Of a DNA stretch of 64,000 bases, positions 44,179 to 60,784 are shown in pieces. The position numbers and the translations under genes are program-made. A model generated the notes under the pieces. The model ran no database searches, was not told the origin of the DNA, and saw only the letters and a program-made list of their open reading frames with translations. The first letter of the stretch is position 1. Every line of letters starts with the position of its first letter. Source of the DNA: an uncultured Candidatus Saccharibacteria bacterium (GTDB lineage: Bacteria > Patescibacteriota > Saccharimonadia > Saccharimonadales > Saccharimonadaceae); NCBI GenBank assembly GCA_964407405.1, contig CAYOVH010000002.1:184053-248052 (forward strand), read 5' to 3'.

Positions 44179-44210
44179 ATCTCTACTCTTAATTGTAAAT
44201 AGTCTGAAAT
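44179..44210 (-). promoter_or_regulatory. Phage repeated motif, copy G (degenerate)
   Basis: Minus sense ATTTCAGACTATTTACAATTAAGAGTAGAGAT, followed directly by the ATG of the fibre gene. Confidence 0.5.
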
Positions 44211-44221
44211 CACTAAAAGTA

Positions 44222-44361
44222 TGATATAATAATCGTGTCTATATTTTTCAGCTGCGGAACATACTTTATATCTAGCTTAGAGGTGGGCAGCCATTACAAA
44301 AGCTAGATTTGAGTCTGCTTTGAAAGGTATAGACAGCCAGTGATGGCTGTCCATTTTTATT
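44222..44361 (+). promoter_or_regulatory. Extended -10 promoter, structured leader and intrinsic terminator ahead of the plus-strand moron genes
   Basis: TGATATAAT (44222-44230). Hairpin ATCTAGCTT-N21-AAGCTAGAT (44270-44308). GACAGCCA-GTGA-TGGCTGTC plus CATTTTTATT (44332-44361), just before AAGGAGG-ATG. Confidence 0.45.
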
Positions 44362-44376
44362 CCCAAGGAGGTACGT

Positions 44377-44718
44377 ATGGATGAAGAATATAGTAATCTA
44401 GTAGATATCGCAGCTGAGGCGCAAAAAGCTCAGCAAAATCAATCAGCTGGGTTTGCAATAGATGAGAATATCGTTGCTATTACTGCAATATTTATACTTG
44501 TTCAAGCTATTATTTGTGGAATTATTGCTACCTTTATAGCTCATGAGAATGAGCGAAGTAAGTCGCTTGCTTTTGTAACTGGCTTTTTTCTTGGTCCATT
44601 GGGTATTGCGATCTACGCTATTATTGGAGAAACTATCGAGCTGAGGATAGCTATTGAAGAAAAAGAACGACGAAAGCTTCAAAAGGAATATAAACAACCG
44701 GCAAAGGTTGATGTATGA
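44377..44718 (+). CDS. small membrane protein (moron)
   Basis: 113 aa with two TM helices (FFLGPLGIAIYAIIG). Strong AAGGAGG SD. Opposite strand to the structural genes. Confidence 0.65.
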   Translation: MDEEYSNLVDIAAEAQKAQQNQSAGFAIDENIVAITAIFILVQAIICGIIATFIAHENERSKSLAFVTGFFLGPLGIAIYAIIGETIELRIAIEEKERRKLQKEYKQPAKVDV

Positions 44719-45254
44719 GGATACCACTACGCAGAAGAAACTATAAGATCATAGCCATGGTATTGATTGCTCTTGGTCTAGCAATATCTATTAGCTTGAT
44801 GATGATTTATGCTTCTAAAAAACCGGAGCAAAGAGCAGCTATAAGTAGTGTTGAGCAGCCAGATGAGGAAGCTACTCAAAATGAACCAAGAAAAATAGAT
44901 AAGATTTCAAAAGAAAGCACTAATATTTCCAAAGGTACAACTAATAAACCAAAACAAAATGATCAGCCAAAAGAAAAGCCAAAAGTCTTATCGACACAAG
45001 AGTATGGAGAGAAATACCTTAATCTAAGTCATCCTGATCTCCAAAAATGCTTTGATACTATTGTAGAGGCATTCCCGCATAGATTTACAGAAGATGTCCG
45101 TGAGAATAATGTAAAAGCACTACGCGCCTGGTCATCGGTATGTGCTACTGAAGTATATCGTGTTTATCCAGGTGCTCCCGCTATACGATCAAAAGGATTA
45201 TGGTTGATTAATGATGACTTCTTTGACGGTGATACTGCCAAAAGCTACCATTAA
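44715..45254 (+). CDS. membrane-anchored protein with low-complexity linker (moron)
   Basis: 179 aa. N-terminal TM, Lys/Pro/Gln-rich linker and C-terminal globular part. 4-nt overlap with the upstream gene. Confidence 0.6.
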   Translation: MRIPLRRRNYKIIAMVLIALGLAISISLMMIYASKKPEQRAAISSVEQPDEEATQNEPRKIDKISKESTNISKGTTNKPKQNDQPKEKPKVLSTQEYGEKYLNLSHPDLQKCFDTIVEAFPHRFTEDVRENNVKALRAWSSVCATEVYRVYPGAPAIRSKGLWLINDDFFDGDTAKSYH

Positions 45255-45661
45255 GAAAACTTCGGCTGGTTGTATGTTTTTATCAGAAAGGTGAAGTTTT
45301 CCGTCCCTGATGCTGTTACCATTGATAGCCCATAAGGATTCGGGATGATAACTGTTGCACGTATGGTATTTCCTCCAGCATGTGAGCACGCTACAAATAT
45401 GCCATACACACCCCTAGACCCAGTTCTACTAAATCTAGTAGAAATAGCAACCGGATAGTAGTGTGACCCTTCTTTTGAGCTATTTACTCTTACATTAAGA
45501 AGTGACTCTGCCTTCCCTAAGGTGATATCGGCTGTTTGTATTAATGTACCATATCCTCCAATTGTTTGAGACCCTGGAATAGATATTGCTGTCTGACCAC
45601 TATCGTCATTACGTAGGGTATCAAAATCAGTCGTTATAATTAAGTTATCTATTCTAGTCAT
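45251..45661 (-). CDS. phage tail/baseplate-region protein, function unknown
   Basis: 136-aa ORF in the post-tape-measure block. Confidence 0.5.
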   Translation of the reverse strand: MTRIDNLIITTDFDTLRNDDSGQTAISIPGSQTIGGYGTLIQTADITLGKAESLLNVRVNSSKEGSHYYPVAISTRFSRTGSRGVYGIFVACSHAGGNTIRATVIIPNPYGLSMVTASGTENFTFLIKTYNQPKFS

Positions 45662-46370
45662 CTAGGTATATCCTATAGTGCATTGTGAATAGCCCAGCGA
45701 AATAAGTATCGAAATACATGTTTAATGTAGTAGTAGTTAGCGTGCTATATGCTTCTACACCAGAGACTCCGATGGCTTGCTCCGATCCGTATAGCCTTGT
45801 TCGTCCATCCCATGTTGAAAATATCAACACAACTGGTATATATCCTAGATTATGCGTCACACTCCTCACGTCGAATCCAGCGCTGCCGCTATCATTGACT
45901 GATATCGTCCCTTGGTCATATATCTTCAAGTAATTTTCTGTTGAGTCCATGTATAGCCCGTAAGTTACTGGTGATTCAGCGATTGAAGTATTGCTTGGTA
46001 TTGATATAGGCTGGAGAGCGGTTACTCTGTATGCAAATGTAGTTGTCGCAGCAAAATTTATGAAAGTAGCATATATATTTGTAGCATCGCTCTCTACTAC
46101 TCCAAAAGGACTATTCATAAATTGATTGAATGCAGCTACAAATTGTATTGATCCTGACCCAAAATCAAAGCTTGTTGCCCATGAATCATTTGAGTAGGAG
46201 CCCACGCAAAGTGGCGTGAATGGTAGCCCATGTGGTATAGTTACCGTCACTGCGTCGGCTATACTGCTTGCTTTTGGCACTGAAATTGTCCCAGAGCGTT
46301 TAAATACCACCTTATCGTATGGATAATCTGTTGTGAGGGTAAGCTTCTTTGACTCTGATATTGGAGGCAT
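45654..46370 (-). CDS. phage tail/baseplate-region protein, function unknown
   Basis: 238-aa ORF in the post-tape-measure block. Confidence 0.55.
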   Translation of the reverse strand: MPPISESKKLTLTTDYPYDKVVFKRSGTISVPKASSIADAVTVTIPHGLPFTPLCVGSYSNDSWATSFDFGSGSIQFVAAFNQFMNSPFGVVESDATNIYATFINFAATTTFAYRVTALQPISIPSNTSIAESPVTYGLYMDSTENYLKIYDQGTISVNDSGSAGFDVRSVTHNLGYIPVVLIFSTWDGRTRLYGSEQAIGVSGVEAYSTLTTTTLNMYFDTYFAGLFTMHYRIYLDD

Positions 46371-46371
46371 C

Positions 46372-46632
46372 TTAGCCTCCGAGTATATTTATCACATCTT
46401 GGCCTGGAGCACTTTGCCATATACCAACCCTCAAAAGATATGATCCGATCTTGATGCGCCGATTTGTTCCATCGTTGAATAAGAATCCTGTACGGTCAAT
46501 AATGACAAGATCGTTTGCCGTTGCCGAGTCATATATTCGCATCGTTCCTCGGCCTTCATCAATCTGAATCTGGCCACCGAGAGTTGATATAAGGTTATTT
46601 CCTGGTTGTGTAATCTTGGTTATTATAGCCAT
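46372..46632 (-). CDS. phage tail-region protein, function unknown
   Basis: 86-aa ORF whose ATG lies directly after motif copy F. Confidence 0.5.
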   Translation of the reverse strand: MAIITKITQPGNNLISTLGGQIQIDEGRGTMRIYDSATANDLVIIDRTGFLFNDGTNRRIKIGSYLLRVGIWQSAPGQDVINILGG

Positions 46633-46662
46633 CTCTATGTTTAATTATGGAGATGCTGAGAA
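46633..46662 (-). promoter_or_regulatory. Phage repeated motif, copy F (degenerate)
   Basis: Minus sense TTCTCAGCATCTCCATAATTAAACATAGAG followed by ATG. Confidence 0.5.
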
Positions 46663-46664
46663 TC

Positions 46665-49181
46665 CTAGATTCCTTGAATTGATATAGATCCTGTCTTTGC
46701 TTTTACTGTTTCATTTATGAGTTTCGCTATTCGAGTGGCAATGGCCCGTTCATCTGCCTTTGATGAGGTCATTACCCCGGACATAGATAAGTTAACTGTA
46801 ACATTAGTACTTCCCCCAGCTACACCGTCCTTTGGTAGTCCAGTAGCTTGGTTTACCTGTTCCTTCGGAAGAACGTACTCCCCTGCATGAACGATACCAG
46901 CAACGTCATTCTTTGCGCCAGTGCCAGTAAAACCACCACTTGCGAAAGCAGGAACAACATATCTCTTCCCTTTATACTCATTGACTGAGAATCCGCGATC
47001 AATATCTTTTTTATCTTTACTCTCAAAAACAATAGGTGTTCCTGCAACTTCTTTTGTATAAGATTTAACCTGATTTTTTCCATATTGAGACCCGTAGGCT
47101 TGTCCTGCGGCAGCACCGGCTGAACTTGCATCGGCTATTTGTTGTCTTAGACTCTTAAGCTGCTCATCACGCTGTTTCTTGAGCGCTTGTATCTCGTCAA
47201 GTAGCATTACACCACGTACTGATAGCACGTCATTACGATGTTTATTGAGAAGCGCGAGTTCTTCATTGAGTTTTTTCTGGTTTTCAGCTCTTCTTGCTTC
47301 ATATTCAGTCTTTGCAGATTGGGTTTGAGCATTAAATTCTTGTTCTCTGAGACCAGTAGATTTCTGATATTCTGCATTTTCTCGCGCAAGAGCAAATTGC
47401 AGCTCTGAGAGTTGTTTCTGATTTGCAACAGTGTTGTACTTTGATAGAAAGTCTATCTGATTTTGTAATGCACGAGTTTTCTGCTGGTGAGTTAAGAGCT
47501 CCTCATTCTGAGTTTTATTGAATGACGTCAGGCGCTCATTATAGGCATTTTTATAAGCCCTTTCCTCTTCAGTGAGAGTTTTTGTAAGAGAGGCTATATT
47601 CTCATTTTTCTCTTTAACAAGTTGCGCAAGTGAATAACGATAATTATCCCTCACATCCTGCATCTGCTGGTTGATCTTGGCTATTTGCTTTGCAGTATCT
47701 TTTGCATTAGTTGCTGCTGTACCAAGTCCACCAGCGGCCTCATTAACATTTTGACCAAATTTATCTGATAAATCCTCTGCGCTATCTAAATTGTCAATTA
47801 ATGATGATACAGCAATACCGGTACCAATTGCCGCTAATCCGCCCAATAGAGCTGTCAGTCCACCACTAGCAAAAGCACTAGCAACACCCATTGCTGTTAT
47901 TGCTGAACGAATTGTACGAAAAGCTGTAATTGCTAGTGGTACAACAGTTAGGAACCCAACAAATGCAGTTGCTCCTGCGCCAAATGCGATTGCAGCCTTC
48001 TGGCCTTCTTCATTCATACCTCCAAGAGCACCAATAAAACCACCAGTAACAATATTAGTAACACGCCCAATGGTTGTCTGCATCTCTTTCAGTGTTTGAT
48101 TTAGTTGAGCCTGCTTGCCTGCATTAGTTTCGGCCAGTACAGCAGAATCACCCTCTACAAGATTGTTAAGACGCTGCTGACCAATTAATTTAGCTTGTAC
48201 ACGCTCTTTCTCGCTTAGTTGAGAGACACTCTTACCCAATACCCCAGCACCATACTCGAGTATCTTATTCCAATTTTCGGTTTGTCCAGATAGATTACCG
48301 ATTGCGCTGTTTTCGGTATAGAATGATTCTGCTAGGTTTCCGACCGCTGTATCAAAGTCTATAGTTGACGATTTACCAAATGCTGCTTGGTCTTTATAGC
48401 CTTGCATTAGCTTTATTGCTTCTGGTAGACCGACACCAGCTGTAAGTAGCTTTTGTAGTCCATCGGCCGCAGTGGAAACTGTAATGAGTCCATCGCTTGC
48501 TAGGCTCTGGGCTGCACTAGTGGCTTCTTTCGCACTATATCCAAATCTCTCTGAGAGCCTTGATAGTCCTGCTAGTGCCGCCTCATATTCATTTGCAGCA
48601 GTGACACTATTCTTAACAACATTCATAGCCGTGTTGAGGACAGTTAGTCCAGCTACTACGCCGCCAATAGCAACAATAGAATCTGCCATTGAGCTAGTAA
48701 AGCTATTTTGGCTCTTATACGTACCATCAAGCATCGAAGAAAGCTTTGATTGCTGTTGAGATTGGTTTTGTACTGCTACATTGAGAGCATTTGTGGCACT
48801 ACTTGCTTGTGTAGATCCAGCACCATATCTTTGAATAGCGGCCGTACTTCGTGCAGTTGCACTGGCAACTTGATTATTTGCTCGTTCAACGGTGAGGAAT
48901 TGTTTTTGAATTTGTGGAGTATAGGTAGAGAGAGTTTTAGCCGTCTCTTGGGCTTCTCTCTTTATGGCATTTACTCGAGTTTGTGCATCATATGCGGTCG
49001 TTCCACTAGATGATCCAGACTTGCTAGCTGTTGTCTGAGCAGCTTTCTTAGCAGCCTTGGATTGATTGTCGTACGATTTTTGAACTAGTTTATCTGCTTC
49101 AGCAATGGATTTCTTAAGCTGTGCTAGATCAATACTAGCATCATACTTAACGGCTCCGACTGCTGTAGCACCAGATTGCAT
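46665..49181 (-). CDS. tail tape measure protein
   Basis: 838 aa. Long coiled-coil regions, a central Gly/Ala-rich TM-like block, and the expected position after the chaperone pair. Confidence 0.85.
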   Translation of the reverse strand: MQSGATAVGAVKYDASIDLAQLKKSIAEADKLVQKSYDNQSKAAKKAAQTTASKSGSSSGTTAYDAQTRVNAIKREAQETAKTLSTYTPQIQKQFLTVERANNQVASATARSTAAIQRYGAGSTQASSATNALNVAVQNQSQQQSKLSSMLDGTYKSQNSFTSSMADSIVAIGGVVAGLTVLNTAMNVVKNSVTAANEYEAALAGLSRLSERFGYSAKEATSAAQSLASDGLITVSTAADGLQKLLTAGVGLPEAIKLMQGYKDQAAFGKSSTIDFDTAVGNLAESFYTENSAIGNLSGQTENWNKILEYGAGVLGKSVSQLSEKERVQAKLIGQQRLNNLVEGDSAVLAETNAGKQAQLNQTLKEMQTTIGRVTNIVTGGFIGALGGMNEEGQKAAIAFGAGATAFVGFLTVVPLAITAFRTIRSAITAMGVASAFASGGLTALLGGLAAIGTGIAVSSLIDNLDSAEDLSDKFGQNVNEAAGGLGTAATNAKDTAKQIAKINQQMQDVRDNYRYSLAQLVKEKNENIASLTKTLTEEERAYKNAYNERLTSFNKTQNEELLTHQQKTRALQNQIDFLSKYNTVANQKQLSELQFALARENAEYQKSTGLREQEFNAQTQSAKTEYEARRAENQKKLNEELALLNKHRNDVLSVRGVMLLDEIQALKKQRDEQLKSLRQQIADASSAGAAAGQAYGSQYGKNQVKSYTKEVAGTPIVFESKDKKDIDRGFSVNEYKGKRYVVPAFASGGFTGTGAKNDVAGIVHAGEYVLPKEQVNQATGLPKDGVAGGSTNVTVNLSMSGVMTSSKADERAIATRIAKLINETVKAKTGSISIQGI

Positions 49182-49184
49182 TTT

Positions 49185-49616
49185 TTACTCTTTCACCTCT
49201 GCTCTCTCGGCAAAAGGTCTTAGGGCACTATCAAATGAATTAGATCCGGATTTGAAGCTATTAGAAACTACTCCAGCATGTATTTTCTCAATTTGCTGTG
49301 AATAGCGTACTTTATCAGCGCCTTCGAGGAGTAACATAACCTCATCTAGGGACAGTGTCACTGCTTTATAAGCAACATTACCGTTTTTATCTAGCACTAG
49401 TTTTCCTCTGTTATCGCAAATTGGCTCAACCGTAAAACCACGGCGTATATCTCTAATTGCTTTCCATCCCCAATATGTTCCAGCTTTTGCGACTAGAAAT
49501 ATCTCCGGAGATACATCTTGGCCTTTTCGTGCCTTATTGCGCTCCATTCGCTTTTTTGCACGTTCAAGGGATTTTTTTCGTTCGTCGTCGGGCATTAAAT
49601 CAAGCAAATTAGGCAT
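49185..49616 (-). CDS. phage protein upstream of tape measure (tail assembly chaperone position)
   Basis: 143 aa. Called on position only. Confidence 0.45.
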   Translation of the reverse strand: MPNLLDLMPDDERKKSLERAKKRMERNKARKGQDVSPEIFLVAKAGTYWGWKAIRDIRRGFTVEPICDNRGKLVLDKNGNVAYKAVTLSLDEVMLLLEGADKVRYSQQIEKIHAGVVSNSFKSGSNSFDSALRPFAERAEVKE

Positions 49617-49618
49617 GA

Positions 49619-50068: not shown

Positions 50069-50113
50069 ATAATCCTCCTGGATTATCAATGCTTTCGCAC
50101 AATGTTAAGGTTT

Positions 50114-50142
50114 CCTACTATTAATTGTGACGAGGCTGAGGA
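50114..50142 (-). promoter_or_regulatory. Phage repeated motif, copy E (degenerate)
   Basis: Minus sense TCCTCAGCCTCGTCACAATTAATAGTAGG, 45 nt upstream of ATG 50068. Confidence 0.5.
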
Positions 50143-50148
50143 TTCTAA

Positions 50149-51708
50149 TTAAGGTGCCAGGACATCAGAGCCATTCAATACAGATTGATTCAACGTAAAC
50201 CAGTGGCGCGGCGTATACTTCCTGCATTTGAGTACTTGTGTAAATTTTGCATCTTGTATCTTGTTGGTTATTGATATTACTCGATAGTTACCGGAGAACT
50301 CATCATAGTCAACTTCGATAATGTCAGATAGTTGGATAGCCGGATTCCCTTTTACTTCTATGATGATGATGTCATTATGATCAGAATATTCGTCTAGGAT
50401 CGTGCGAGCTAATGAATCAGCTTGTGAGACAGATTGAATAAAATTGTTATCTATAGTTAAGATTTTCTCTTCGTACTTATCTACAGATTCGTCATCATAT
50501 GCGTTATAAACTGTTGGCTCAAGGCTAATCTTTTTACCAGGCTGACCCCACAAGAAGAGTTGATTGATATTTACGGCAAATCCGTTTGTATTACTAAAGA
50601 TAATATTGAAGGTATTTGTTTTCAGCTCAGTGGAAACAACTGATACACCGGAATTTACGGGAGTCCCATCAGGTAGTGCAGCAGTAAACCATGATACGCT
50701 TGAGTTTTCTCCAGCAGTTGGATTTTCAATCGTTAGGCATGGGTCTGATAAATTTGCTGGGAACTCATAAGTACCCCCAGCTGGTACGACATGAAGTGTG
50801 GTATCTGATGTAGTTTTTGAATATACTGCTTGATATTCCTGTACTTCTCGTACATCAGTATTGATAATCATGTGATTGATGATTTGATCATCGCCACTTG
50901 TTTCAAGGCTGATGATACTATCATAGTCAAATATATAGGTTGGTTCACTTGGCTGTTCGAGTCGTGGTCTGAACTTAATAATTCCCTGCTCATCGAGCCA
51001 GAGCATACCCATTTCTGCTTGCATAAGCGGCCGTATAATATCACCAGCAGTCTGCTGTTCTCTCTCAAAGAAAAGAAATGGTATAACATTCCTACCTCTT
51101 GCAAGATCATACTGACTTGGCGCTAATCCAAACTGCTCAAAAATATTTGCGAGTACTTCGTCAGTGCGTACATTTTGCATAGCAATGGTATTACGAATAG
51201 GCATGTCATATATCCATGTCAAGAAGTCCATAGCCGTAAATGTTGCTGTGCTTTCTGTACGAGATATTTCTGGCATACCTTCAGTAAGGCCTACAAATTG
51301 TGGTAAAACCGTGTTAGCGAAGCCCTGGAGCAGTCGGACGGGTCTTTTAGGTAGGATGTAGCTAGATATCGGCGACGATGAGTTTGGTGTGAAGTATTTA
51401 TCGTAGTTGTTAAGCTGAAAGTCGGCTATAGCGGATACTACTGAATATGGGAATTCAAGGCTGCGCTCGATGGACATATACATTAGGCGCTCACTGAAGT
51501 CTCCGTACTCAAAATAGTTCCATGGCAAGAACTTTTCATCACCAGCGATACCTAAAATATCACCACCGTTTAAGATGGATTGATCGAGTGTAAACCAGTC
51601 TATGTCGGGGTCTGAGATTTTGTCGAACGAAATCTGTACGACATATGCATTGATTGGCCGGATATCACCGTTTGCTATGGCATTGAATTGAGGACTAACA
51701 ATTTGCAT
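50149..51708 (-). CDS. large phage tail structural protein (519 aa), function unknown
   Basis: Long ORF between the putative major tail gene and the chaperones. Contains the motif WFTL[DN]QS[IV]LNG[GS]D[IV]L near both termini. Confidence 0.6.
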   Translation of the reverse strand: MQIVSPQFNAIANGDIRPINAYVVQISFDKISDPDIDWFTLDQSILNGGDILGIAGDEKFLPWNYFEYGDFSERLMYMSIERSLEFPYSVVSAIADFQLNNYDKYFTPNSSSPISSYILPKRPVRLLQGFANTVLPQFVGLTEGMPEISRTESTATFTAMDFLTWIYDMPIRNTIAMQNVRTDEVLANIFEQFGLAPSQYDLARGRNVIPFLFFEREQQTAGDIIRPLMQAEMGMLWLDEQGIIKFRPRLEQPSEPTYIFDYDSIISLETSGDDQIINHMIINTDVREVQEYQAVYSKTTSDTTLHVVPAGGTYEFPANLSDPCLTIENPTAGENSSVSWFTAALPDGTPVNSGVSVVSTELKTNTFNIIFSNTNGFAVNINQLFLWGQPGKKISLEPTVYNAYDDESVDKYEEKILTIDNNFIQSVSQADSLARTILDEYSDHNDIIIIEVKGNPAIQLSDIIEVDYDEFSGNYRVISITNKIQDAKFTQVLKCRKYTPRHWFTLNQSVLNGSDVLAP

Positions 51709-51710
51709 GG

Positions 51711-52091
51711 TTAACTCCCCAGCTGACGAGTCTCACGTAGCGTAATTGTCACGTCTGATACTGTCCCGCAGTCGTCGATAAGATTCTTAGGACCCAACAT
51801 ATAGTCCACGACGAGATTACTAACATTCTCGCCATCAATAGTGAGCCTAGGATACATCCATTCCGCTTTCTGACGCTCGTAGATATCATGCAATAGGTCA
51901 TATTCATCTTTGCTCAGAAAAGCCCAGCTGTGGCTCCATATACGCTTTGTCGCCATATAATCGCGATATATATTCCCTGACAACGGCTCGACAGTAGTCA
52001 TTATTTCGTTGTCAACTCTCGTAAGAGGTACCTCCAGTGGTGGTAGCTCATGTGTTCCTGTTGAGTCAGTAAGATAGATTGTGTAACTCAT
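51711..52091 (-). CDS. phage structural-region protein, function unknown
   Basis: Start trimmed to ATG 52091 (MSYTIYL), directly after motif copy B. Confidence 0.55.
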   Translation of the reverse strand: MSYTIYLTDSTGTHELPPLEVPLTRVDNEIMTTVEPLSGNIYRDYMATKRIWSHSWAFLSKDEYDLLHDIYERQKAEWMYPRLTIDGENVSNLVVDYMLGPKNLIDDCGTVSDVTITLRETRQLGS

Positions 52092-52119
52092 TCTATCTTT
52101 AATTATGTAGAGGCTGAGT
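52092..52119 (-). promoter_or_regulatory. Phage repeated motif, copy B
   Basis: Minus sense ACTCAGCCTCTACATAATTAAAGATAGA followed by ATG. Preceded by a terminator. Confidence 0.6.
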
Positions 52120-52130
52120 CTAGCAGTTGG

Positions 52131-52164
52131 GTATAATAAAACCACTCTGTAACAGGAGTGGTTT
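52131..52164 (-). terminator. Intrinsic terminator after the putative major tail gene
   Basis: Minus sense AACCACTC-CTGTTACA-GAGTGGTT followed by TTATTAT. Confidence 0.55.
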
Positions 52165-54399: not shown

Positions 54400-54418
54400 A
54401 GTTTGACCCCTTTCCTAA

Positions 54419-56380
54419 TTAAGATGTTGCTTCGGTTGCGATAGCTACAGCGGATACACCAGCGCCAGCAAGTGCTCCACCTTTGTAGATTTCACTTAGG
54501 TACTCATGCTTGTTTTCTTTAAGAACGAAGTTTGTGAAACTCTCAATACTTGCGTCACCAACTGTCTTGTATGAGCTGAGCACCACGAGAACAGCGTCTA
54601 CGTCAGGTGAGGTTGTATCGTTGAACCACTTAGGTTCAAACACACCCTCTAGACCAAGAGCCTCTGAAGTAGTCGCACGGCTTGGTGGAATTGGACTAGT
54701 GCCGTTGGCGATGAATTCAAGACGAATATCTGTTAGATAGCCTTTTTTAGCGATAAGGTATACATCACCCTCAACTTCGATTTCATCTGTAGCCTTAACA
54801 AGCGATACGCTCTTTGTTTCGCCTGGAGCAGGTGTATATATAACTGCGAATGTATTGCTTGGAGAAAGTGCATCGGTAAGGATAGGAGTAAAACCACCCT
54901 GTGAAGCGTCTTCACGGATCTTACGGTTTGAGCTAGGAGAACGGCCATCACCAATAACAACTGCACGTTCAATTTCACGGACAACACGAGTTGGTAGCTC
55001 GTTCATCACGAAGGTTATTAAAGCACCAGTTGAGCGCTGTTGACGGACATCTTCTTTGTTAAGAGTAAGGTACTTGTAAATGTACTGAGCGCGGATAACA
55101 CGGTTATCAAAGTCAAGGATTTGCTCCTCTTTATCGACACCTTTTTTGTGACCACCCGCACGGCTAGTATCAGCTTCAGCGTCAGTGTCATCCCAGTCAA
55201 CACGTGCAACATCAAGACCTGTGTGGTTAAGAGCGTTATAAATACCGCTAGCCTTAACAGCATCTTCAATCTTAGTTACCAGTGGTGCTGGCAATACAAA
55301 GTAGTCAGCAGAGTCTGGTGCTAGTCCGTTTTTGATTGCGATATCTTTCCAAGCAGCACGAACACGGGCAACTGATTCTTCGTTTGCATCACCTGGGTGA
55401 GCAGCTAGAACGTTTGCGAAGTCTTCTACAGCTTGCGTAGATTTAATATAGTTTTCAAAGTTTGCTTTTGGTGCTGCGTTTGTAGGTTCAGCCTGATTCT
55501 TAGGCTCAATAACCTGTGCTACTGCAACTTTTTCTTGTTCTGTCATTATAGTTTCCTTATCTTTGACTGATTTATCTTCCTCTACTACTTCGTCAGTCAC
55601 CTCTGTAGTTTCGGTTTTCTCGACTTCTGTCGGAGTTTCTGCTTTCGGCTCATCTGTGGTTTTTGGTTCCTCAGCAGCAGCCTTAACAGGTTCTTTGGTT
55701 GTATTGGAAACATTTATTTCCTCGACTTTTAACGCGTCTGTTTTCTCTTTGATACTCATAGCGGGTTGCATAACAGCATTTCGGACTGTTGATGCGAAGC
55801 TAAGTGCATTTTTGATAGAGTCAGACACGGTTGGCTTCTTGGGTTCTTGAGCTTCCGTAGCGAATCCTAGATCAACTGCTTCTTGTGCTGTCATCCATGT
55901 CTCGGCGGCTAGTAGTTCGGAGATCTCCTCTTCACTCTTGCCAGTCCTTGCGACATAAATAGATGCAATACTGTCACCAGTCTTCTCAAGCATTTCGACT
56001 ACTTTTGATAGTTCATCCTTATTACCCATAGCGAATGTCCACGGATTGTGAATCATCATCATAGAGCCGGGTAGCATAATGATGTCTTCACCGGCCATAG
56101 CAACGAACGAAGCGGCAGAGGCTGCGAGGGCTTCTACTTTAACGGTCACCTTGCCATCATGTTCGACAAGGGCGTTATAGATAGATACTCCAGCGAAAAC
56201 ATCACCACCAGGGCTGTTAATCCTAACGGTAATATCACCTGTATGCTGTTTTAGTTCCTTTTTAAAGGCTTTTGGTGTGACTTCATCACCCCACCAGGAT
56301 GAGCTAGCGATAACTCCCTCAAGCAAAAGTTCAGACTCATTTCCAGCCTCATCTTTTACCCATTTCCAGAATTTATCCAT
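54419..56380 (-). CDS. ClpP-like prohead protease fused to scaffold-like linker and HK97-type major capsid protein
   Basis: N-terminal INSPGGDVFAGVSIYNAL...AASAASFVAMAG...MMIHNPW (S14 protease). Acidic/Lys-rich middle. C-terminal region of about 330 aa of capsid-like sequence. Confidence 0.8.
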   Translation of the reverse strand: MDKFWKWVKDEAGNESELLLEGVIASSSWWGDEVTPKAFKKELKQHTGDITVRINSPGGDVFAGVSIYNALVEHDGKVTVKVEALAASAASFVAMAGEDIIMLPGSMMMIHNPWTFAMGNKDELSKVVEMLEKTGDSIASIYVARTGKSEEEISELLAAETWMTAQEAVDLGFATEAQEPKKPTVSDSIKNALSFASTVRNAVMQPAMSIKEKTDALKVEEINVSNTTKEPVKAAAEEPKTTDEPKAETPTEVEKTETTEVTDEVVEEDKSVKDKETIMTEQEKVAVAQVIEPKNQAEPTNAAPKANFENYIKSTQAVEDFANVLAAHPGDANEESVARVRAAWKDIAIKNGLAPDSADYFVLPAPLVTKIEDAVKASGIYNALNHTGLDVARVDWDDTDAEADTSRAGGHKKGVDKEEQILDFDNRVIRAQYIYKYLTLNKEDVRQQRSTGALITFVMNELPTRVVREIERAVVIGDGRSPSSNRKIREDASQGGFTPILTDALSPSNTFAVIYTPAPGETKSVSLVKATDEIEVEGDVYLIAKKGYLTDIRLEFIANGTSPIPPSRATTSEALGLEGVFEPKWFNDTTSPDVDAVLVVLSSYKTVGDASIESFTNFVLKENKHEYLSEIYKGGALAGAGVSAVAIATEATS

Positions 56381-56448
56381 GCTTTACCTTTACTTATTAA
56401 AGTTTTAGAACACTCCCTTGCGTTCTTAGTGAACTTTGCTTGTTCGGT

Positions 56449-56476
56449 TCTACCTTTAATTATGTAGAGGCTGAGA
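56449..56476 (-). promoter_or_regulatory. Phage repeated motif, copy A
   Basis: Minus sense TCTCAGCCTCTACATAATTAAAGGTAGA, directly after the upstream stop and 68 nt before ATG 56380. Confidence 0.6.
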
Positions 56477-57313
56477 TTACGCACCCACAAATGAGGCATA
56501 AACAGTCGTACCATTATCGGCTGCGGCCATGCTCGTAGAGCCAATAACTGTGATGGTGAGAACCACAACTCCTGTGAATTGACGTTTTTTAACAGATACA
56601 GTAACTGAGGTAGTAGATATATTAGTTACCCTGAAAGAATACTGTTCGTTATCGTCATTGACTCTGAATTGGCATCCGGCTTGAGTTATAGAGCTAAACC
56701 CAGCACTTGATATATCAAATGTTACAGAACCTCCACTAACTGCTCCGTTTAAATAAATGCTTTTAGGAATAGCCGGTTTGTTTTTAATAAAATCGACTGA
56801 TGAGGTATTTGATTGGTTCCAGTCGGACTGCACTTGGGCGGCGGGTATGCTCGGTTTATTAGACAAATCATTGTAATTACCGGAATATGCAACGTCAGAT
56901 AATTCAGCGAGCTGGCCATCTGTATAGTCTTTAGCATCTTCTAACGCTTGGTTAGAACTACCAGCCTCATCAGCTCCTACGTCTGAGTAATCAAGAACGA
57001 CCACGCCAGTTTTACTATTCACTGAGTCAACAGGAACAGTAGGAATGGTAGGCTTATCTATAAGATCTTCATAGTCACCTGTAAAGGCAACATCAGCCAA
57101 TGACGATTGATCTACCTTATCATTGAGTGCGGATTGAGTAGCATTTGATATAGGTTTATCGGAATCGGATGTATTATCGACATTACCAAGTCCTAATTGA
57201 GATTTATCGTAAGGAACAAGCACACCTTCCCATCCAGTATCGTCAAGTTTGCGGCGCACAGTTTGGCCAGGATTCGCCTGTGTATTACCTGGTATAGTAT
57301 TCCAATTTGCCAT
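56477..57313 (-). CDS. fibre-like repeat protein in the head module (head fibre/decoration?)
   Basis: LGLGNVDNTSDSDKPIS plus the repeats VAFTGDYEDLIDKPTIP, VAYSGNYNDLSNKPSIP and VDFIKNKPAIP. Confidence 0.55.
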   Translation of the reverse strand: MANWNTIPGNTQANPGQTVRRKLDDTGWEGVLVPYDKSQLGLGNVDNTSDSDKPISNATQSALNDKVDQSSLADVAFTGDYEDLIDKPTIPTVPVDSVNSKTGVVVLDYSDVGADEAGSSNQALEDAKDYTDGQLAELSDVAYSGNYNDLSNKPSIPAAQVQSDWNQSNTSSVDFIKNKPAIPKSIYLNGAVSGGSVTFDISSAGFSSITQAGCQFRVNDDNEQYSFRVTNISTTSVTVSVKKRQFTGVVVLTITVIGSTSMAAADNGTTVYASFVGA

Positions 57314-57315
57314 AA

Positions 57316-57543
57316 TTAGTTCTCAATAACTCCTGACGCTCTTAGAGCTGTAGTTATTTCGTTTACTTTTTGTACAATATCTGCTTCAGTTGCGAATTCG
57401 TCTAGGTCGCTTATCGCTCCCTGCCTAACCACACTTCCATTAGTGGTATTTGTAGAAATTGTTTCGAGTAGCTGGTTATTAGTCTTTTGAGACGCTCTAG
57501 GTACTTTGGCTATATCACTTATAAAATCATTGTTGCTTGGCAT
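57316..57543 (-). CDS. phage hypothetical protein
   Basis: 75-aa ORF overlapping the portal 3' end. Confidence 0.45.
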   Translation of the reverse strand: MPSNNDFISDIAKVPRASQKTNNQLLETISTNTTNGSVVRQGAISDLDEFATEADIVQKVNEITTALRASGVIEN

Positions 57544-58975
57544 TTGCCTTCTCCTTAATTACTGGCACCTCAAGTGCCTTACAGCTTGAATTTGAGCATT
57601 TAAGTTTCCCATCTGAACCTAGAAACCTATCACACTCAGAGCAGTGAAGCTCTTGTCCATGTATGCTATTTAACGGTGTAACACCATCAATTTTGCTGGG
57701 GTCTGGCGCTTTCTCTACCTCATTACCCTCATCCACTTCGGGTTTATCGTTATCAATAACCGTAGTGTCGTTGCCCTTTTTCAATAGCTTATAGCTCTGA
57801 GACAACTGAAATGCGTCTACAACACTATCAAGCGACCAGCTGTAAGGTTCTGACGTGTAGGTGATGATAATTTCTGACTCAATTTTCTTAGTTTCGGCTT
57901 TAACCTTCTCAGCGTCAGACACGGTAGGTATTTCATACTTAAAGGTGATTGAAGCTCCAAGACCACCAGTTATACGGTTTAGCTCGTGGGTAATTTGTGA
58001 GTAAATACGTAGTCCCAGAGGTTTAACGGCACGTTTGGCAAATCCATTTTCTGATACTTCGGCGTTGTTGTAGGTCGCTTGTGAGTCTACACCTTTAATA
58101 ACTGCTGATACACCGTAGTTTTCAGACAGCCGATCGTCTACGTGTTTAAGTAGGGGTTCAAAGTCAATCTCTTTATTAGTCTGAGCAAATGGCACCCACT
58201 CTATTTGCGACTGCTGAGCGTTTCCTGCTGCGTCTAGGGGTACGTGAGCATATGAGACGTTATTATTATTGCCAGCTCCTCTGTGTCGCTCTTGGAGCTT
58301 GTCAACCATGTCGTTGTATTCTGGCACTGTTTTAGCAACAATCTTAAATACACCGGCAGGGATGGCGTTATTTTCAAAGAATCCATTTTGGTAATCTGCA
58401 ATATACCCATCAAGCGTCGCCCACTTCGCAGCTGCGAGATATGGTGAGTATCCACCGTATAGATTACCCGGCTTAGCGCCGCCAGGAATAGCAATAACTT
58501 CATCTTCTGAGAACTCTTGAGCGCCAATCTTGTAGTATATTTTGCCATCTCGATACTCAACGCCCGGACACTCTAGGAATGTATAGCCAGCGATATTATT
58601 GCCCTTAAAGCCAAATTCTCCGCCCGGCTTCGCTTCTCCTCCCTCATTACGCCAAACAAGTAGATATGTATAGTCTTGAGCAAGGACAGATACGCCCAGC
58701 TTTTCCATAAAAAGAGGCAGACTATCACGCTTATTAGGATGGAATAAGGCATTTAGTGCAGCGTGAGGTACTGGCTTACCGTTACCATCAATCGCATGCG
58801 GTACAATCCCCATCAGCTCATTTGTGATAGGTCGGACGTTAGGATAGTGGCTTGCGTATTCGTCAGATTTAAAGTGATTGTAAAGTCCATAAGGATTAAC
58901 TTGAGCAAAACTAGGTGCGCCGACTAAATTAACCTGAGCCTTAACTCCACTAAGAGCAGTGCCTAATATATTCAC
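57527..58975 (-). CDS. portal protein with C-terminal Cys4 tail
   Basis: 482 aa, in the expected position after terminase. C-terminus CSEC-x11-C-x4-C. Confidence 0.75.
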   Translation of the reverse strand: MNILGTALSGVKAQVNLVGAPSFAQVNPYGLYNHFKSDEYASHYPNVRPITNELMGIVPHAIDGNGKPVPHAALNALFHPNKRDSLPLFMEKLGVSVLAQDYTYLLVWRNEGGEAKPGGEFGFKGNNIAGYTFLECPGVEYRDGKIYYKIGAQEFSEDEVIAIPGGAKPGNLYGGYSPYLAAAKWATLDGYIADYQNGFFENNAIPAGVFKIVAKTVPEYNDMVDKLQERHRGAGNNNNVSYAHVPLDAAGNAQQSQIEWVPFAQTNKEIDFEPLLKHVDDRLSENYGVSAVIKGVDSQATYNNAEVSENGFAKRAVKPLGLRIYSQITHELNRITGGLGASITFKYEIPTVSDAEKVKAETKKIESEIIITYTSEPYSWSLDSVVDAFQLSQSYKLLKKGNDTTVIDNDKPEVDEGNEVEKAPDPSKIDGVTPLNSIHGQELHCSECDRFLGSDGKLKCSNSSCKALEVPVIKEKANAKQQ

Positions 58976-59196
58976 TTGCTACTCCTTTTTGCGATGTACA
59001 AAACGCCCACAACAGCCTGTAACGTAAATGAGAGCAATAACCCCCACTCCGGTGACGTAATCCACGATACAGCCCCAGGAACAGCTACGAACAGCACAAA
59101 CATCGTATATAGTTCTGCAAGGTTAGTTTTAACACCACTCAGCAATCTTGACGTGGCTACTGCTATGTTCTTTGTGAGCTTTTTCAGTAGTTTCAT
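58972..59196 (-). CDS. small 2-TM membrane protein between terminase and portal
   Basis: 74 aa (MFVLFVAVPGAVSWI..., LLLSFTLQAVVGVLYI). ATG directly after motif copy C. Confidence 0.55.
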   Translation of the reverse strand: MKLLKKLTKNIAVATSRLLSGVKTNLAELYTMFVLFVAVPGAVSWITSPEWGLLLSFTLQAVVGVLYIAKRSSK

Positions 59197-59225
59197 ATCT
59201 ACCTTTTATTATGTAGAGGCTGAAA
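59197..59225 (-). promoter_or_regulatory. Phage repeated motif, copy C
   Basis: Minus sense TTTCAGCCTCTACATAATAAAAGGTAGAT followed by ATG. Confidence 0.6.
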
Positions 59226-60395
59226 TTAGCGAATGCCGCCGTACTCAACCTTTGGCGTAATCAGGTCGATTAGCTTATACTTCGCAGCGTCCAGCAAGTG
59301 GTCGTTGCCATCTTGTGGAACATTCAAGCTCTTGCCGGTTCTATCCGTCGCCCAGAGGTAGCCAAGGTATTCGCTTTGGAGTTTGGTGCTAGATCGAGTG
59401 TAGTAGATAGTCATCTCTTGTATCTTCGAGGTCGCCCACTGACGGTATGATTGCTTACTGTCTTGGCTTTGTTTATTAGCACCCTTTAATGCATTACCCA
59501 TACCCACAAGCTCAGCAATGTCTTTAGGGGCGGAACTATCCGCAACTCCGAGTACACCAGATAGATTATTCTCTTTCAACACAGCGTCAATATCAGAGTT
59601 AAACATGCCTGTTCGATAACAGACTTCATCGAGTAAGTAGCCCTCGCCGTATTTAAACACCTTAACAATAGTTGTTGGGTCGTTCGTAAATCCAAAGTCC
59701 AACCCATAGCCTAGTAACTCAGCACCTTCAGGTATATCATCGACAGCCTGCCAGCCTGAATATACAAGCCCCTCAAGCTCGCCAATCTGCCCCTCGCCGT
59801 AAACCCTCCACCAGTTCTTATTAGGCTTTCTAAGTTCAATCTTTTTAACGATACTCTCTTCCAAGGCTTCGTTGTCTTTGTAGGTAGTAATAATAAAATC
59901 AACATCGTCACGTTTCGCCACAAGCTCTGTGTGCGCCCAAAACTCAGCAGTTGGGTTGTAGTCGATGATTGAGAAATCCCTCGTACGTACCTCTAGCTGA
60001 TCAAATATATCATATGTGATCAAGTTCGCTTCATTGATAAATAGAACATCACGACGTGATCCACGTGCCTTACCCTCATCTAGCGCAACGAATTCAATCA
60101 CAGTGCCGTTAAAAAACGTAAAGGTATGTTCAGCTTTGTTTTCGCTGATTCGATAATACTGCCAATAACTATTAGCCGTGAGGATATTCTTAAAATCACG
60201 CAGCGCGCCACGTTTAAGGTGGGGCATATTGACACTAGCAATCGTAATAATCTTATTTGGGTTTTTGGTAGCGTATTCAAGTAAGACCAGAAGTATCGCA
60301 ATAGTCTTCCCCGCGGAAGTTCCGCCCTGAACGATTCGCAAAGGCTTTTTAAGCGCCTTGATGCGATGATAGGCAGTAGTCTTGCCGTATGCCAT
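59226..60395 (-). CDS. terminase large subunit
   Basis: Walker A QGGTSAGKT, Walker B-like VLFINEA, C-terminal nuclease-like region. Confidence 0.85.
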   Translation of the reverse strand: MAYGKTTAYHRIKALKKPLRIVQGGTSAGKTIAILLVLLEYATKNPNKIITIASVNMPHLKRGALRDFKNILTANSYWQYYRISENKAEHTFTFFNGTVIEFVALDEGKARGSRRDVLFINEANLITYDIFDQLEVRTRDFSIIDYNPTAEFWAHTELVAKRDDVDFIITTYKDNEALEESIVKKIELRKPNKNWWRVYGEGQIGELEGLVYSGWQAVDDIPEGAELLGYGLDFGFTNDPTTIVKVFKYGEGYLLDEVCYRTGMFNSDIDAVLKENNLSGVLGVADSSAPKDIAELVGMGNALKGANKQSQDSKQSYRQWATSKIQEMTIYYTRSSTKLQSEYLGYLWATDRTGKSLNVPQDGNDHLLDAAKYKLIDLITPKVEYGGIR

Positions 60396-60767
60396 CTATT
60401 TCTCCTTGCGAAGATCTTCGAGTGGCTCTGGCGGTGTGAGGTTAGTTTGTTCGATGGTTTGTTTTGGCGTGCCGTAGACTTGGTTAATCATACTATCGAT
60501 CACTTTCCAGTCGCTGTTTTTTATAGCAGTCGCTAGCCGGCGTTCGAATAATGGTTGTTCAGTGTCAGCGATAGCCTCGTCAAGCTCTGATTCTGATAGC
60601 TTCATCATCTGCTCTAACTTGAATCTTGGAGTGTCTTCTTTCTTCCATGCACCGTTGTGCCTCCGCTCTGGGTACGCCTCAAATCCGGCTGGTGTAGGTA
60701 CTCCGCCCTTGCCTACTGAGGGCTTCCGTTGCTTTGTAGGGTTTTTATCCTCTTTCATATTTATCAT
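60396..60767 (-). CDS. putative terminase small subunit
   Basis: 123 aa, basic N-terminus, immediately upstream of and abutting terL. The start may be ATG 60758, because ATG 60767 lies inside motif copy D. Confidence 0.45.
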   Translation of the reverse strand: MINMKEDKNPTKQRKPSVGKGGVPTPAGFEAYPERRHNGAWKKEDTPRFKLEQMMKLSESELDEAIADTEQPLFERRLATAIKNSDWKVIDSMINQVYGTPKQTIEQTNLTPPEPLEDLRKEK

Positions 60768-60784
60768 TATGTAGAGGCTGAAAA
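60759..60784 (-). promoter_or_regulatory. Phage repeated motif, copy D
   Basis: Minus sense TTTTCAGCCTCTACATAATGATAAAT followed by ATG. Immediately preceded by a terminator. Confidence 0.6.

What the first reader, a model, noticed from the sequence alone, without database searches (positions are those of the whole stretch)
44179..60784. Seven co-oriented copies of a phage-specific 16-28 nt motif (core TCAGCCTCTACATAAT) directly upstream of structural gene blocks
Minus-sense copies are as follows.
- A, 56449-56476: TCTCAGCCTCTACATAATTAAAGGTAGA
- B, 52092-52119: ACTCAGCCTCTACATAATTAAAGATAGA-ATG
- C, 59197-59225: TTTCAGCCTCTACATAATAAAAGGTAGAT-ATG
- D, 60759-60784: TTTTCAGCCTCTACATAATGATAAAT-ATG
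- E, 50114-50142 (degenerate): TCCTCAGCCTCGTCACAATTAATAGTAGG
- F, 46633-46662 (degenerate): TTCTCAGCATCTCCATAATTAAACATAGAG-ATG
- G, 44179-44210 (degenerate): ATTTCAGACTATTTACAATTAAGAGTAGAGAT-ATG
The 16-mer is identical in A-D. All copies are intergenic, on the coding strand and just after an upstream stop or an intrinsic terminator (B, D). In five cases they end 7-13 nt before the start codon. The motif contains a -10-like CATAAT/ACAAT but has no conserved -35. The lysis cassette instead has a textbook TTGCCA-17-TATAAT promoter. Interpretation (inference): these are phage middle/late promoters read by a phage-encoded factor, giving very short-leader or leaderless mRNAs. The 3' half (TTAAAGGTAGA) superficially resembles the T3/T7-type promoter end (CTAAAGGGAGA), but no single-subunit RNA polymerase (RNAP) gene is visible in this window. 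An RNA-processing site is an alternative.
Basis: partly seen in the sequence, partly recalled or inferred. Interest (0 to 1): 0.75.

Follow-up and report, generated by a model that had tools for sequence, protein, structure and literature searches.

The report
Repeated late-gene promoters of a Saccharibacteria prophage
Eight same-strand copies of a 27-base motif in front of the virion and lysis gene blocks of a Saccharibacteria prophage are most likely the phage's late promoters, several placed so close to the start codon that the mRNAs would have almost no leader; this is a familiar kind of phage regulation in a host group where no promoters have been described.

Summary
The 16-mer occurs 4 times exactly. 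A 27-nt matrix finds 8 copies, one more than reported (H, 43231-43257). All are on the minus strand between 43231 and 60782, scoring 30-42; the next best site in 64 kb scores 11. There are none in the 40 kb of host DNA or in about 9 kb of upstream phage genes.

Related phages carry diverged copies in the same gene slots. Across 26 copies from 8 phages, the invariant bases are positions 2, 4 and 6 of a -10 hexamer (yAnAaT) and a T-A(-G) seven to eight bases downstream. That is the signature of a bacterial RNA polymerase -10 element plus start site.

A conserved TCAGCCT box sits at about -23 to -17, and no -35 is present. More distant relatives keep "-10 + TAGA" in the same slots but replace the box with TATAAT or TGn-extended -10 elements.

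The predicted start gives leaders of 0, 3, 4, 4 and 6 nt for five genes. These five lack the canonical AAGGAG/GGAGG-type Shine-Dalgarno site that most internal genes have.

The hairpin (RNA-processing) and T7-type polymerase readings were tested and failed. The factor reading the TCAGCCT box is unidentified; a 124-aa orphan protein co-occurs with it.

Verdict: a new member of a known kind. No 5' ends have been mapped.

The parts
60756..60782 (-). Copy D: TTCAGCCTCTACATAATGATAAATATG, in front of the putative small terminase gene (60396-60758). The predicted +1 A is the A of the ATG, so the leader is 0 nt.
   Evidence: same slot occupied in L234, L235, L239, L256, L258, L259
59198..59224 (-). 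Copy C: starts 1 nt after the large terminase stop codon, in front of the 74-aa membrane protein gene and the portal gene. Predicted leader 4 nt.
   Evidence: same slot in L234, L235, L239, L254, L256, L258, L259
56449..56475 (-). Copy A: in front of the fused protease-major capsid gene (54419-56380). Predicted leader 71 nt.
52092..52118 (-). Copy B: follows a terminator and abuts the ATG of the 126-aa tail gene (51711-52091). Predicted leader 3 nt.
50114..50140 (-). Copy E (diverged, CACAAT hexamer): in front of the tail chaperone and tape-measure block. Predicted leader 48 nt, with an AGGAGG Shine-Dalgarno site.
   Evidence: in L235 and L239 this slot follows a gene on the opposite strand
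46634..46660 (-). Copy F (diverged): starts 4 nt after the tape-measure stop codon and abuts the ATG of the 86-aa gene (46372-46632). Predicted leader 4 nt.
44182..44208 (-). Copy G (diverged, TACAAT hexamer): in front of the tail-fibre gene 43651-44178. The genes upstream of it (44377-45254) are on the opposite strand. Predicted leader 6 nt.
43231..43257 (-).
60788..60809 (-). Intrinsic terminator ending 5 nt before copy D.
   Evidence: -13.7 kcal/mol, z = -3.1; the same hairpin precedes the motif in L234
52137..52166 (-). Intrinsic terminator after the tail-tube gene, 18 nt before copy B.
   Evidence: -14.1 kcal/mol, z = -3.6, followed by UUUUAUUAU
43161..43189 (-). Canonical TTGCCA-17-TATAAT promoter of the lysis cassette, in tandem with copy H.
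56381..56451 (-). Conserved 5'UTR of the protease-capsid gene. Its conservation across six phages begins at the predicted +1.

Best explanation
The eight copies are the late promoters of a prophage integrated next to a tRNA-Thr gene in a Saccharibacteria chromosome.

Each copy has three parts:
- a -10 element, yAnAaT, mostly CATAAT or TACAAT;
- an invariant T-A-G seven to eight bases downstream, which fits the pyrimidine(-1)/purine(+1)/G(+2) preference of bacterial RNA polymerase at the start site (general knowledge, not tested here);
- in place of a -35 hexamer, a lineage-specific box TCAGCCT at about -23 to -17.

The host RNA polymerase is inferred to start at the A of TAG. That splits the 17.5-kb virion and lysis region into about eight units. 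Five units (small terminase, the 74-aa gene plus portal, the 126-aa tail gene, the 86-aa gene, the tail fibre) would have leaders of 0-6 nt and no canonical Shine-Dalgarno site. They would therefore be translated as leaderless or near-leaderless mRNAs. The other three (capsid, chaperone and tape measure, lysis) have ordinary leaders.

The TCAGCCT box is inferred to be the site of a phage-specified late activator, or of a repressor. It would make these weak, -35-less promoters late-specific, in the way the Lpa box centred at -22 works in phage P1.

Shown here: the anatomy, the conservation pattern and the genomic context. Inferred: the start site, the timing, and the existence and identity of the factor.
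For: 1. All eight copies are on the coding strand of the late region. There are none in 40 kb of host DNA and none in about 9 kb of co-oriented upstream phage genes.

2. In 26 copies from 8 phages, the invariant columns are positions 2, 4 and 6 of the hexamer and the T and A of TAG; the G is present in 25 of 26. Positions 2 and 6 correspond to A-11 and T-7, the two bases a sigma-70-type factor needs most (general knowledge).

3. In front of the capsid gene the 5'UTR is conserved from the base after TAG in six phages. The sequence upstream is unalignable, yet it always carries a -10-like hexamer 5-6 nt before TAGA: CATAAT, TATAAT, TGgTAATAT, TACAAT, TATAGT.

4. The pattern yAhAAT-N5-6-TAGr occurs 23 times on the gene strand and once on the other strand in relatives. 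In the window it occurs 0 times on the plus strand and 10 times on the minus strand.

5. B and D sit directly after terminators. G in the window, and the E slot in L235 and L239, follow genes on the opposite strand, where a promoter is needed.

6. In relatives the 126-aa gene follows the tape-measure gene, with a GGGG- or GGAG-type ribosome-binding site and no motif. In the window the same gene heads a relocated block and has a terminator plus the motif abutting its ATG.

7. Most internal late genes have AAGGAG, GGAGG or GAGGTG 5-9 nt before the start. The five abutting genes have at best AAAGG, AAAG or nothing.

8. In D, and in one L254 copy, the aligned TAG is replaced by TAT-G, so the predicted +1 A is the A of the ATG.

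9. None of the 26 box-bearing copies has a consensus TATAAT or a TG extension. Relatives without the box use TATAAT or TGn-extended -10 elements in the same slots.

10. Precedents exist. P1 has 11 late promoters, each with a -10 plus an Lpa site centred at -22 (PMC3152322, PMC10695390). The Thermus phage Lalka27a has 16 late promoters with a special -10, one extra conserved upstream base and mostly leaderless transcripts (bioRxiv 10.64898/2026.04.20.719267).
Against: No 5' end has been mapped, so the start site and promoter activity are predictions.

The copies within one phage are related by descent or duplication. Conservation among them is therefore not independent evidence; the cross-phage comparison carries the weight.

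No activator, sigma factor or polymerase was identified. The only gene that co-occurs with the box is a 124-aa protein. It has no recognisable DNA-binding fold and sits at the head of a glycosyl/methyl-transferase block, so it may have nothing to do with transcription.

Two phages with that gene, L234 and L256, have variant boxes (CGCCTCC, TCACCCT/TCCTCCT) rather than TCAG.

How well Saccharibacteria ribosomes translate leaders of 0-6 nt is unknown.

The rest of the prophage, beyond about 5.5 kb past the window end, could not be retrieved.
Confidence: 0.75

Rival explanations
1. A translation-start element acting in the mRNA, like the start-associated sequences of cluster K mycobacteriophages. 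The late region would be read as long transcripts, and the motif would recruit ribosomes or a factor to the adjacent ATG.
For: Five of the eight copies end 0-2 nt before an ATG. The 3' half of some copies contains AAAGG, which could pair weakly with a 16S rRNA tail. Start-associated sequences are likewise asymmetric, one-orientation, phage-specific repeats next to start codons (PMC3203893).
Against: Copies A, E and H lie 71, 48 and 139 nt from the next start codon. In relatives the same slots have leaders of about 17-30 nt. The AAAGG part is not conserved: columns 20-23 carry low information. The invariant bases are those of a -10 hexamer, not of a ribosome-binding site. Copies follow terminators and opposite-strand genes, where no upstream transcript would carry them.
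Confidence: 0.06
2. An RNA hairpin (CUCUAC-N10-GUAGAG) serving as an RNase processing site or regulatory structure in polycistronic late transcripts.
For: In the four best copies, CTCTAC and GTAGA(G) are complementary and flank the AT-rich centre. A few relatives show CCTAC...GTAGG.
Against: Over 18 copies only 57% of cells pair. That equals the shuffled mean of 58.6%, and there is no covariation above controls; 2 of 6 pairs are broken in 14 of 18 sequences. The 5' arm would lie upstream of the predicted start. Copies also follow terminators or opposite-strand genes.
Confidence: 0.04
3. Promoters for a phage-encoded RNA polymerase (T7/T3-like single-subunit or another type) or for a phage sigma factor.
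For: About 27 nt of continuous conservation running into the transcribed region. About 10 kb or more of this prophage is unseen.
Against: Relatives of 34-38 kb that carry the motif (L254, L256, L258, L259) have no early-region ORF above about 355 aa in the 10 kb upstream of the 124-aa gene, and none of them has a polymerase or sigma Pfam hit. No such hit was found in the window phage or in L235 and L239. The invariant positions are those of a sigma-70-type -10 hexamer, and relatives use plain TATAAT or TGn-extended -10 elements in the same slots.
Confidence: 0.04
4. The promoters are real, but the TCAGCCT box is a repressor site. It would be an operator or a 'stoperator' in the sense of mycobacteriophage L5, keeping the late genes silent in the lysogen rather than activating them.
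For: Asymmetric, one-orientation, intergenic repeats spread through a prophage are what L5 stoperators look like (general knowledge; mentioned in PMC3203893). The box overlaps the core promoter at -23 to -17, a position from which a bound protein could block the polymerase.
Against: The box is always at a fixed distance from a weak -10 that has neither a -35 nor a TG extension. Relatives without the box have stronger -10 elements, which is the pattern expected for activation. No copy is seen at early-region promoters in the about 9 kb available. Repression and activation cannot be separated by sequence alone.
Confidence: 0.1

Closest known systems
Phage P1 late promoters (Lpa-dependent)
   Same: Both have many copies: 11 in P1, at least 8 here. 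Both lie in front of virion and lysis operons. Both have a -10 hexamer, no -35, and a conserved box centred near -22 in its place. Both are read by host RNA polymerase (PMC3152322, PMC10695390).
   Different: The P1 box is a 9-bp inverted repeat, whereas TCAGCCT is asymmetric and unrelated in sequence. No Lpa-like gene was found. The conserved TAG start and the placement against the ATG are not P1 features. The host is a Saccharibacterium, not an enterobacterium.
Late promoters of Thermus phages (Lalka27a, YS40, P23-45)
   Same: Both show a high density of late promoters without a -35, a class-specific -10 region plus an extra conserved upstream position, and transcripts that start at or next to the start codon. 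In both cases a phage factor is inferred to retarget the host polymerase (bioRxiv 10.64898/2026.04.20.719267; PMC7403470).
   Different: The sequences differ (TAGGGT plus C at -25, or a TG-extended -10). In Thermus the 5' ends were mapped; here they are only predicted. Here only one copy is exactly leaderless, four have 3-6 nt leaders and three have long leaders.
Start-associated sequences of cluster K mycobacteriophages
   Same: Both are phage-specific, asymmetric, one-orientation repeats a few bases from start codons, and both are absent from the host genome (PMC3203893).
   Different: Start-associated sequences are 13 bp, contain the AGGAG ribosome-binding core, lie in the non-structural arm and are thought to act in translation. 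The present motif has no ribosome-binding core, has -10 invariants, lies in the structural arm, and three copies are far from any start codon.
Phage T4 late promoters (TATAAATA, gp55)
   Same: Both are -10-only promoters repeated in front of late genes.
   Different: T4 needs its own sigma-like gp55 and gp33 and the sliding clamp (PMC3152322). No such genes are seen here, and an upstream box is present.
T7/T3-type single-subunit polymerase promoters
   Same: Both show continuous conservation of about 23-27 bp extending past the start, and a ...TAAAGG.AGA-like 3' end.
   Different: There is no polymerase gene. The spacing differs by about 6 bp. The invariant bases are those of a sigma-70-type hexamer.

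Membership tests
Bacterial sigma-70-type promoter (-10 element plus start site) | Hexamer with A at position 2 and T at position 6 conserved | tested here: met
   A (position 2), A (position 4) and T (position 6) are invariant in 26 of 26 copies from 8 phages.
Bacterial sigma-70-type promoter (-10 element plus start site) | Purine start 7-8 nt after the hexamer, preceded by a pyrimidine | tested here: met
   T-A is invariant and G follows in 25 of 26 copies, 7-8 nt after the hexamer. The conserved capsid-gene 5'UTR begins there. This is sequence evidence only.
Bacterial sigma-70-type promoter (-10 element plus start site) | -35 hexamer 16-18 bp upstream, or a TG extension | tested here: not met
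   There is no shared sequence in the -35 zone. None of the eight copies was called by the consensus promoter scan. There is no TG at -15/-14. The copies therefore belong to a factor-dependent or -10-only subclass.
Bacterial sigma-70-type promoter (-10 element plus start site) | Primary transcript 5' ends at the site | not testable with these tools
   No RNA data are available.
P1-type late promoter (Lpa box) | Conserved box centred near -22 replacing the -35 | tested here: met
   TCAGCCT at -23 to -17 is present at 21-25 of 26 copies per position.
P1-type late promoter (Lpa box) | The box is a 9-bp inverted repeat | tested here: not met
   TCAGCCT(C) is not palindromic.
P1-type late promoter (Lpa box) | Phage encodes an Lpa homologue | tested here: inconclusive
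   No annotated regulator appears among the Pfam and PHROG hits of the visible genes. Part of the prophage is unseen.
Leaderless mRNA | Transcript starts at the start codon, or within a few bases of it, with no ribosome-binding site | tested here: inconclusive
   Predicted leaders are 0, 3, 4, 4 and 6 nt and no canonical Shine-Dalgarno site is present. The start sites are predicted, not measured.
Start-associated sequences (cluster K mycobacteriophages) | Sits at the ribosome-binding position, 3-7 bp from the start codon, and contains an AGGAG core | tested here: not met
   There is no AGGAG core, and three of the eight copies are 48-139 nt from a start codon.
T7-like single-subunit polymerase promoter | Phage encodes the polymerase | tested here: not met
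   No ORF above about 355 aa and no polymerase domain occur in the early regions of motif-bearing relatives or in the visible part of this phage.
RNA hairpin or processing site | Base pairing maintained across copies, with compensatory changes | tested here: not met
   57% of cells are paired against 58.6% in shuffles, and the covariation score is below the shuffled mean.

The most novel reading that the evidence does not exclude
The TCAGCCT box is the recognition site of a previously unknown late-gene activator of Saccharibacteria phages. The candidate is the 124-aa orphan-fold protein that is present in all eight box-bearing phages and missing from the same gene slot in a box-less relative. 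If so, these near-leaderless transcripts would show that Saccharibacteria ribosomes routinely initiate without a leader. Together this would give the first defined promoter, activator and translation-start rules for this hard-to-engineer bacterial group.
Probability: 0.15. Interest if true: 0.6.

Novelty: new member of a known kind. Interest (0 to 1): 0.4.

Why it matters
Transcription signals of Saccharibacteria and other ultra-small (CPR) bacteria and their phages are essentially undescribed. My searches found no paper on promoters of Saccharibacteria phages or on leaderless mRNAs in this group.

This motif family gives a concrete, testable set of about 26 promoter sequences. It comes with a predicted start site, a candidate regulatory box and natural variants with and without the box.

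It also predicts leaderless translation in this group. It could supply compact expression parts for the genetic systems now being built for these bacteria.

For phage biology in general it is one more instance of a well-known strategy, not a new principle.

Tried and rejected
1. Exact 16-mer scans. The genome collection gave 119 or more loci and IMG/VR gave 33, each with a single hit and all unrelated organisms, which is the chance level for a 16-mer.

2. Megablast of the 22-kb late region against GenBank phages found no match.

3. Relatives found through the large terminase (80 loci, 69% identity or less) carried no motif. The terminase module turned out to be mosaic. The portal protein was the useful marker.

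4. The hairpin hypothesis (CTCTAC/GTAGAG) was rejected by pair counting.

5. A search for a sigma factor, polymerase or known late activator with Pfam and PHROGs covered the window, L153, L235 and L239. It returned only a YopX-family protein, methylases, glycosyltransferases, a nitroreductase and one weak helix-turn-helix hit.

6. The 124-aa candidate gave a confident model (pLDDT 88) but no fold match in the PDB or in BFVD at E <= 0.001, and no sequence match to solved structures. Its function stays open.

7. Attempts to reach the 263-kb NCBI contig that holds the whole prophage failed.

8. A loose pattern, TANNNT-N5-6-TAGr, shows no strand bias. Only the tighter yAhAAT form is informative.


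Full report
**What the window is.**

Bases 1 to about 40,100 are a bacterial chromosome of 47-50% G+C. They carry dnaX, cysS, rplA, a PhoR-like kinase and five tRNA genes. The closest named CysS homologue, at 65% identity, is from a Candidatus Saccharibacteria bacterium.

A prophage of 39-45% G+C begins at a tyrosine integrase (40263-41159, minus strand) next to tRNA-Thr. It runs off the window end. On the minus strand it encodes:
- holin and endolysin;
- a tail fibre;
- tail genes, including a tape-measure protein (46665-49181);
- head-tail connectors;
- a fused protease-major capsid protein (54419-56380);
- the portal (57527-58975), the large terminase (59226-60395) and a putative small terminase.

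Upstream of these lie YopX-like, glycosyltransferase and nitroreductase genes.

A 13-kb Logan contig, L153, is 100% identical to window 56500-64000. It extends the phage by 5.5 kb of small early genes.

**The observation.**

The 16-mer is present four times exactly. A 27-nt matrix separates eight sites (scores 30-42) from everything else in the window (maximum 10.9). All eight are on the minus strand between 43231 and 60782. There are none in the host DNA, in 60828-64000, or in the extra 5.5 kb of L153.

It lies upstream of the lysis cassette, 42 nt before the TTGCCA-17-TATAAT promoter at 43161-43189.

The positional statements hold:
- C, A, E and F start 1-8 nt after a stop codon.
- B and D follow terminators.
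- The hexamer ends 7-13 nt before the ATG in five copies.

**Relatives.**

Portal-based searches and exact-protein look-ups gave related phage contigs. Diverged copies of the motif sit in the same gene slots. The slots are:
- after the terminator in front of the small terminase gene;
- right after the large terminase stop codon;
- in front of the capsid gene;
- in front of the chaperone and tape-measure block.

They occur in L234, L235, L239, L254, L256, L258 and L259.

Aligning 26 copies from 8 phages without gaps gives the consensus tTCAGCCTctctAtAATtAaaagTAGa. The only invariant columns are the second, fourth and sixth bases of the hexamer and the T and A of TAG; G follows in 25 of 26. TCAGCCT is present at 21-25 of 26 per position. 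Conservation of hexamer positions 2 and 6 is what defines a -10 element read by a sigma-70-type factor. T-A-G seven to eight bases on fits the pyrimidine(-1), purine(+1), G(+2) preference of bacterial RNA polymerase. Both statements rest on general knowledge.

**Independent support from more distant phages.**

In front of the capsid gene, a 5'UTR (ACCGAACAAGCAAAGTTCAC...) is conserved in six phages, beginning at the base after TAG. Upstream of that point the sequences cannot be aligned. Each nevertheless has a -10-like hexamer 5-6 nt before TAGA: CATAAT, TATAAT, TGgTAATAT, TACAAT, TATAGT. L245 has TATACT-ATATA-TAGA there.

Other slots in L238 and L241 show TGgTAAACT...TAGA and a terminator followed by TGgTACAAT.

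The pattern yAhAAT-N5-6-TAGr occurs 23 times on the gene strand and once on the other strand in relatives. In the window the counts are 0 (plus) and 10 (minus), against 1.45 expected for the minus strand of the prophage segment.

**Context that calls for a promoter.**

B and D directly follow intrinsic terminators. G follows two ORFs on the opposite strand (44377-45254). In L235 and L239 the E-slot copy follows a gene on the opposite strand.

There is also a natural experiment. In L235, L238, L239 and L252 the 126-aa tail gene follows the tape-measure gene. It has a GGGG- or GGAG-type ribosome-binding site and no motif. In the window the block of this gene plus the 519-aa gene lies before the chaperone and tape-measure block. 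It carries a terminator plus copy B directly against the ATG, with no ribosome-binding site.

**Leaders.**

Taking the A of TAG as +1, the leaders are:

| Copy | Leader (nt) |
|---|---|
| D | 0 |
| B | 3 |
| C | 4 |
| F | 4 |
| G | 6 |
| E | 48 |
| A | 71 |
| H | 139 |

In D, and in one L254 copy, TAG is replaced by TAT-G, so the +1 A is the A of the start codon. Most internal late genes have AAGGAG, GGAGG or GAGGTG at 5-9 nt. The five abutting genes have at best AAAGG, AAAG or nothing. This fits leaderless or near-leaderless translation, but it rests on a predicted start site.

**What reads the box.**

No -35 is shared, and the consensus promoter scan calls none of the copies. None of the 26 box-bearing copies has TATAAT or a TG extension. 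Box-less relatives use those stronger forms. This is the pattern expected if the box compensates for a weak core promoter through a bound factor.

The closest precedent is P1. Its 11 late promoters have a -10 plus an Lpa site centred at -22 (PMC3152322; PMC10695390). Thermus phage Lalka27a has 16 late promoters with a special -10, a conserved C at -25 and mostly leaderless transcripts, and its authors also infer a phage factor (bioRxiv 10.64898/2026.04.20.719267).

I found no sigma factor, polymerase or known activator. A presence/absence comparison singled out one gene. It encodes a 124-aa protein (L153:4525-4899, just outside the window). The protein is 73-82% identical in L234, L235 and L239. 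It is absent from the same slot in L236, and from the 10 kb upstream of the portal gene in L245.

Its family has 85 members and no Pfam domain. All eight phages with the box or a variant of it have the gene. The model is confident (pLDDT 88) but matches no known fold. The gene always heads a block of Stealth-like, glycosyl- and methyl-transferase genes. The link to transcription is therefore only a correlation among related genomes. A repressor reading of the box cannot be excluded.

**Rejected readings.**

- Hairpin: the complementarity of CTCTAC and GTAGAG in the best copies does not hold across 18 copies. 57% of cells pair, the same as in shuffles, and there is no covariation.
- T7-type polymerase: early regions of motif-bearing relatives of 34-38 kb have no ORF above about 355 aa and no polymerase domain.
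- Start-associated-sequence-like translation element: there is no ribosome-binding core, and three copies lie far from any start codon.

**Verdict.**

The copies are a lineage-specific class of phage late promoters built from a -10, a -22-region box and a fixed start site. Several are placed so that the mRNAs are nearly leaderless. This is a known kind of system in a host group where it had not been described. The start sites, the timing and the factor remain to be shown experimentally.

Noticed in passing
window 43222-44178 (inverted repeat arms 43280-43312 and 44022-44054): A 33-nt inverted repeat (97% match) lies inside the tail-fibre gene (43651-44178, minus strand) and inside a convergent ORF (43222-43641, plus strand). 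Both ORFs encode SDKLDFTTFG at the repeat and then diverge. This looks like an invertible cassette that swaps the tail-fibre C-terminus, as in the phage Mu G segment. No invertase gene is visible nearby.
   Followed up: partly
window 50149-52118 compared with L235 20019-21426, L238 14852-16113, L252 2332-4271: The block of the 126-aa and 519-aa tail genes lies before the chaperone and tape-measure block in the window, but after the tape-measure gene in four relatives. The rearrangement end-points coincide with motif copies B, E and F. The repeated promoters may therefore also serve as recombination points.
   Followed up: partly
window 59226-60758 compared with L234 3516-5227, L235 8059-9770, L256 13818-15535: The terminase module between motif slots D and C has been exchanged. 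The window has a 389-aa Terminase_3-type large subunit. Relatives whose portals are 81-89% identical (L234, L235) have an unrelated 401-aa one, as does L256.
   Followed up: partly
window 56381-56451 (minus strand): The 71-nt 5'UTR of the protease-capsid gene is conserved in six phages. It has a predicted 5'-terminal stem (GAAC/GUUC) and a second hairpin, with almost no covariation. It has no Rfam match at gathering score in the window.
   Followed up: partly
L153 4525-4899 (about 620-995 bases beyond the window end): A 124-aa protein family with 85 members, no Pfam domain, a confident predicted structure and no fold match. It always heads a conserved block of Stealth-like, glycosyltransferase and methyltransferase genes just upstream of the small terminase gene.
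   Followed up: partly
window 54419-56380 (minus strand): The head maturation protease and the major capsid protein are encoded as one 653-aa ORF.
   Followed up: no
window 44377-45254 (plus strand): Two ORFs (113 and 179 aa), with only weak sub-threshold Pfam hits to membrane-protein families, are inserted on the opposite strand inside the tail module. A hairpin plus T-run lies just upstream of them at 44332-44351. They may be a prophage-expressed accessory cassette.
   Followed up: no
window 60828-63980 and L153 5311-8691: A run of Stealth-like, nitroreductase, two glycosyltransferase and YopX-like genes lies between the early genes and the terminase genes. This suggests the phage modifies DNA or a surface sugar.
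   Followed up: no
L153 2634-3483 (outside the window): About 850 bases in the early region have no convincing ORF on either strand.
   Followed up: no
window 23610-24632 (minus strand): The host ribosomal protein L1 ORF has about 115 extra N-terminal residues before the region that matches the L1 family. This could be a real extension or a start codon called too far upstream.
   Followed up: no
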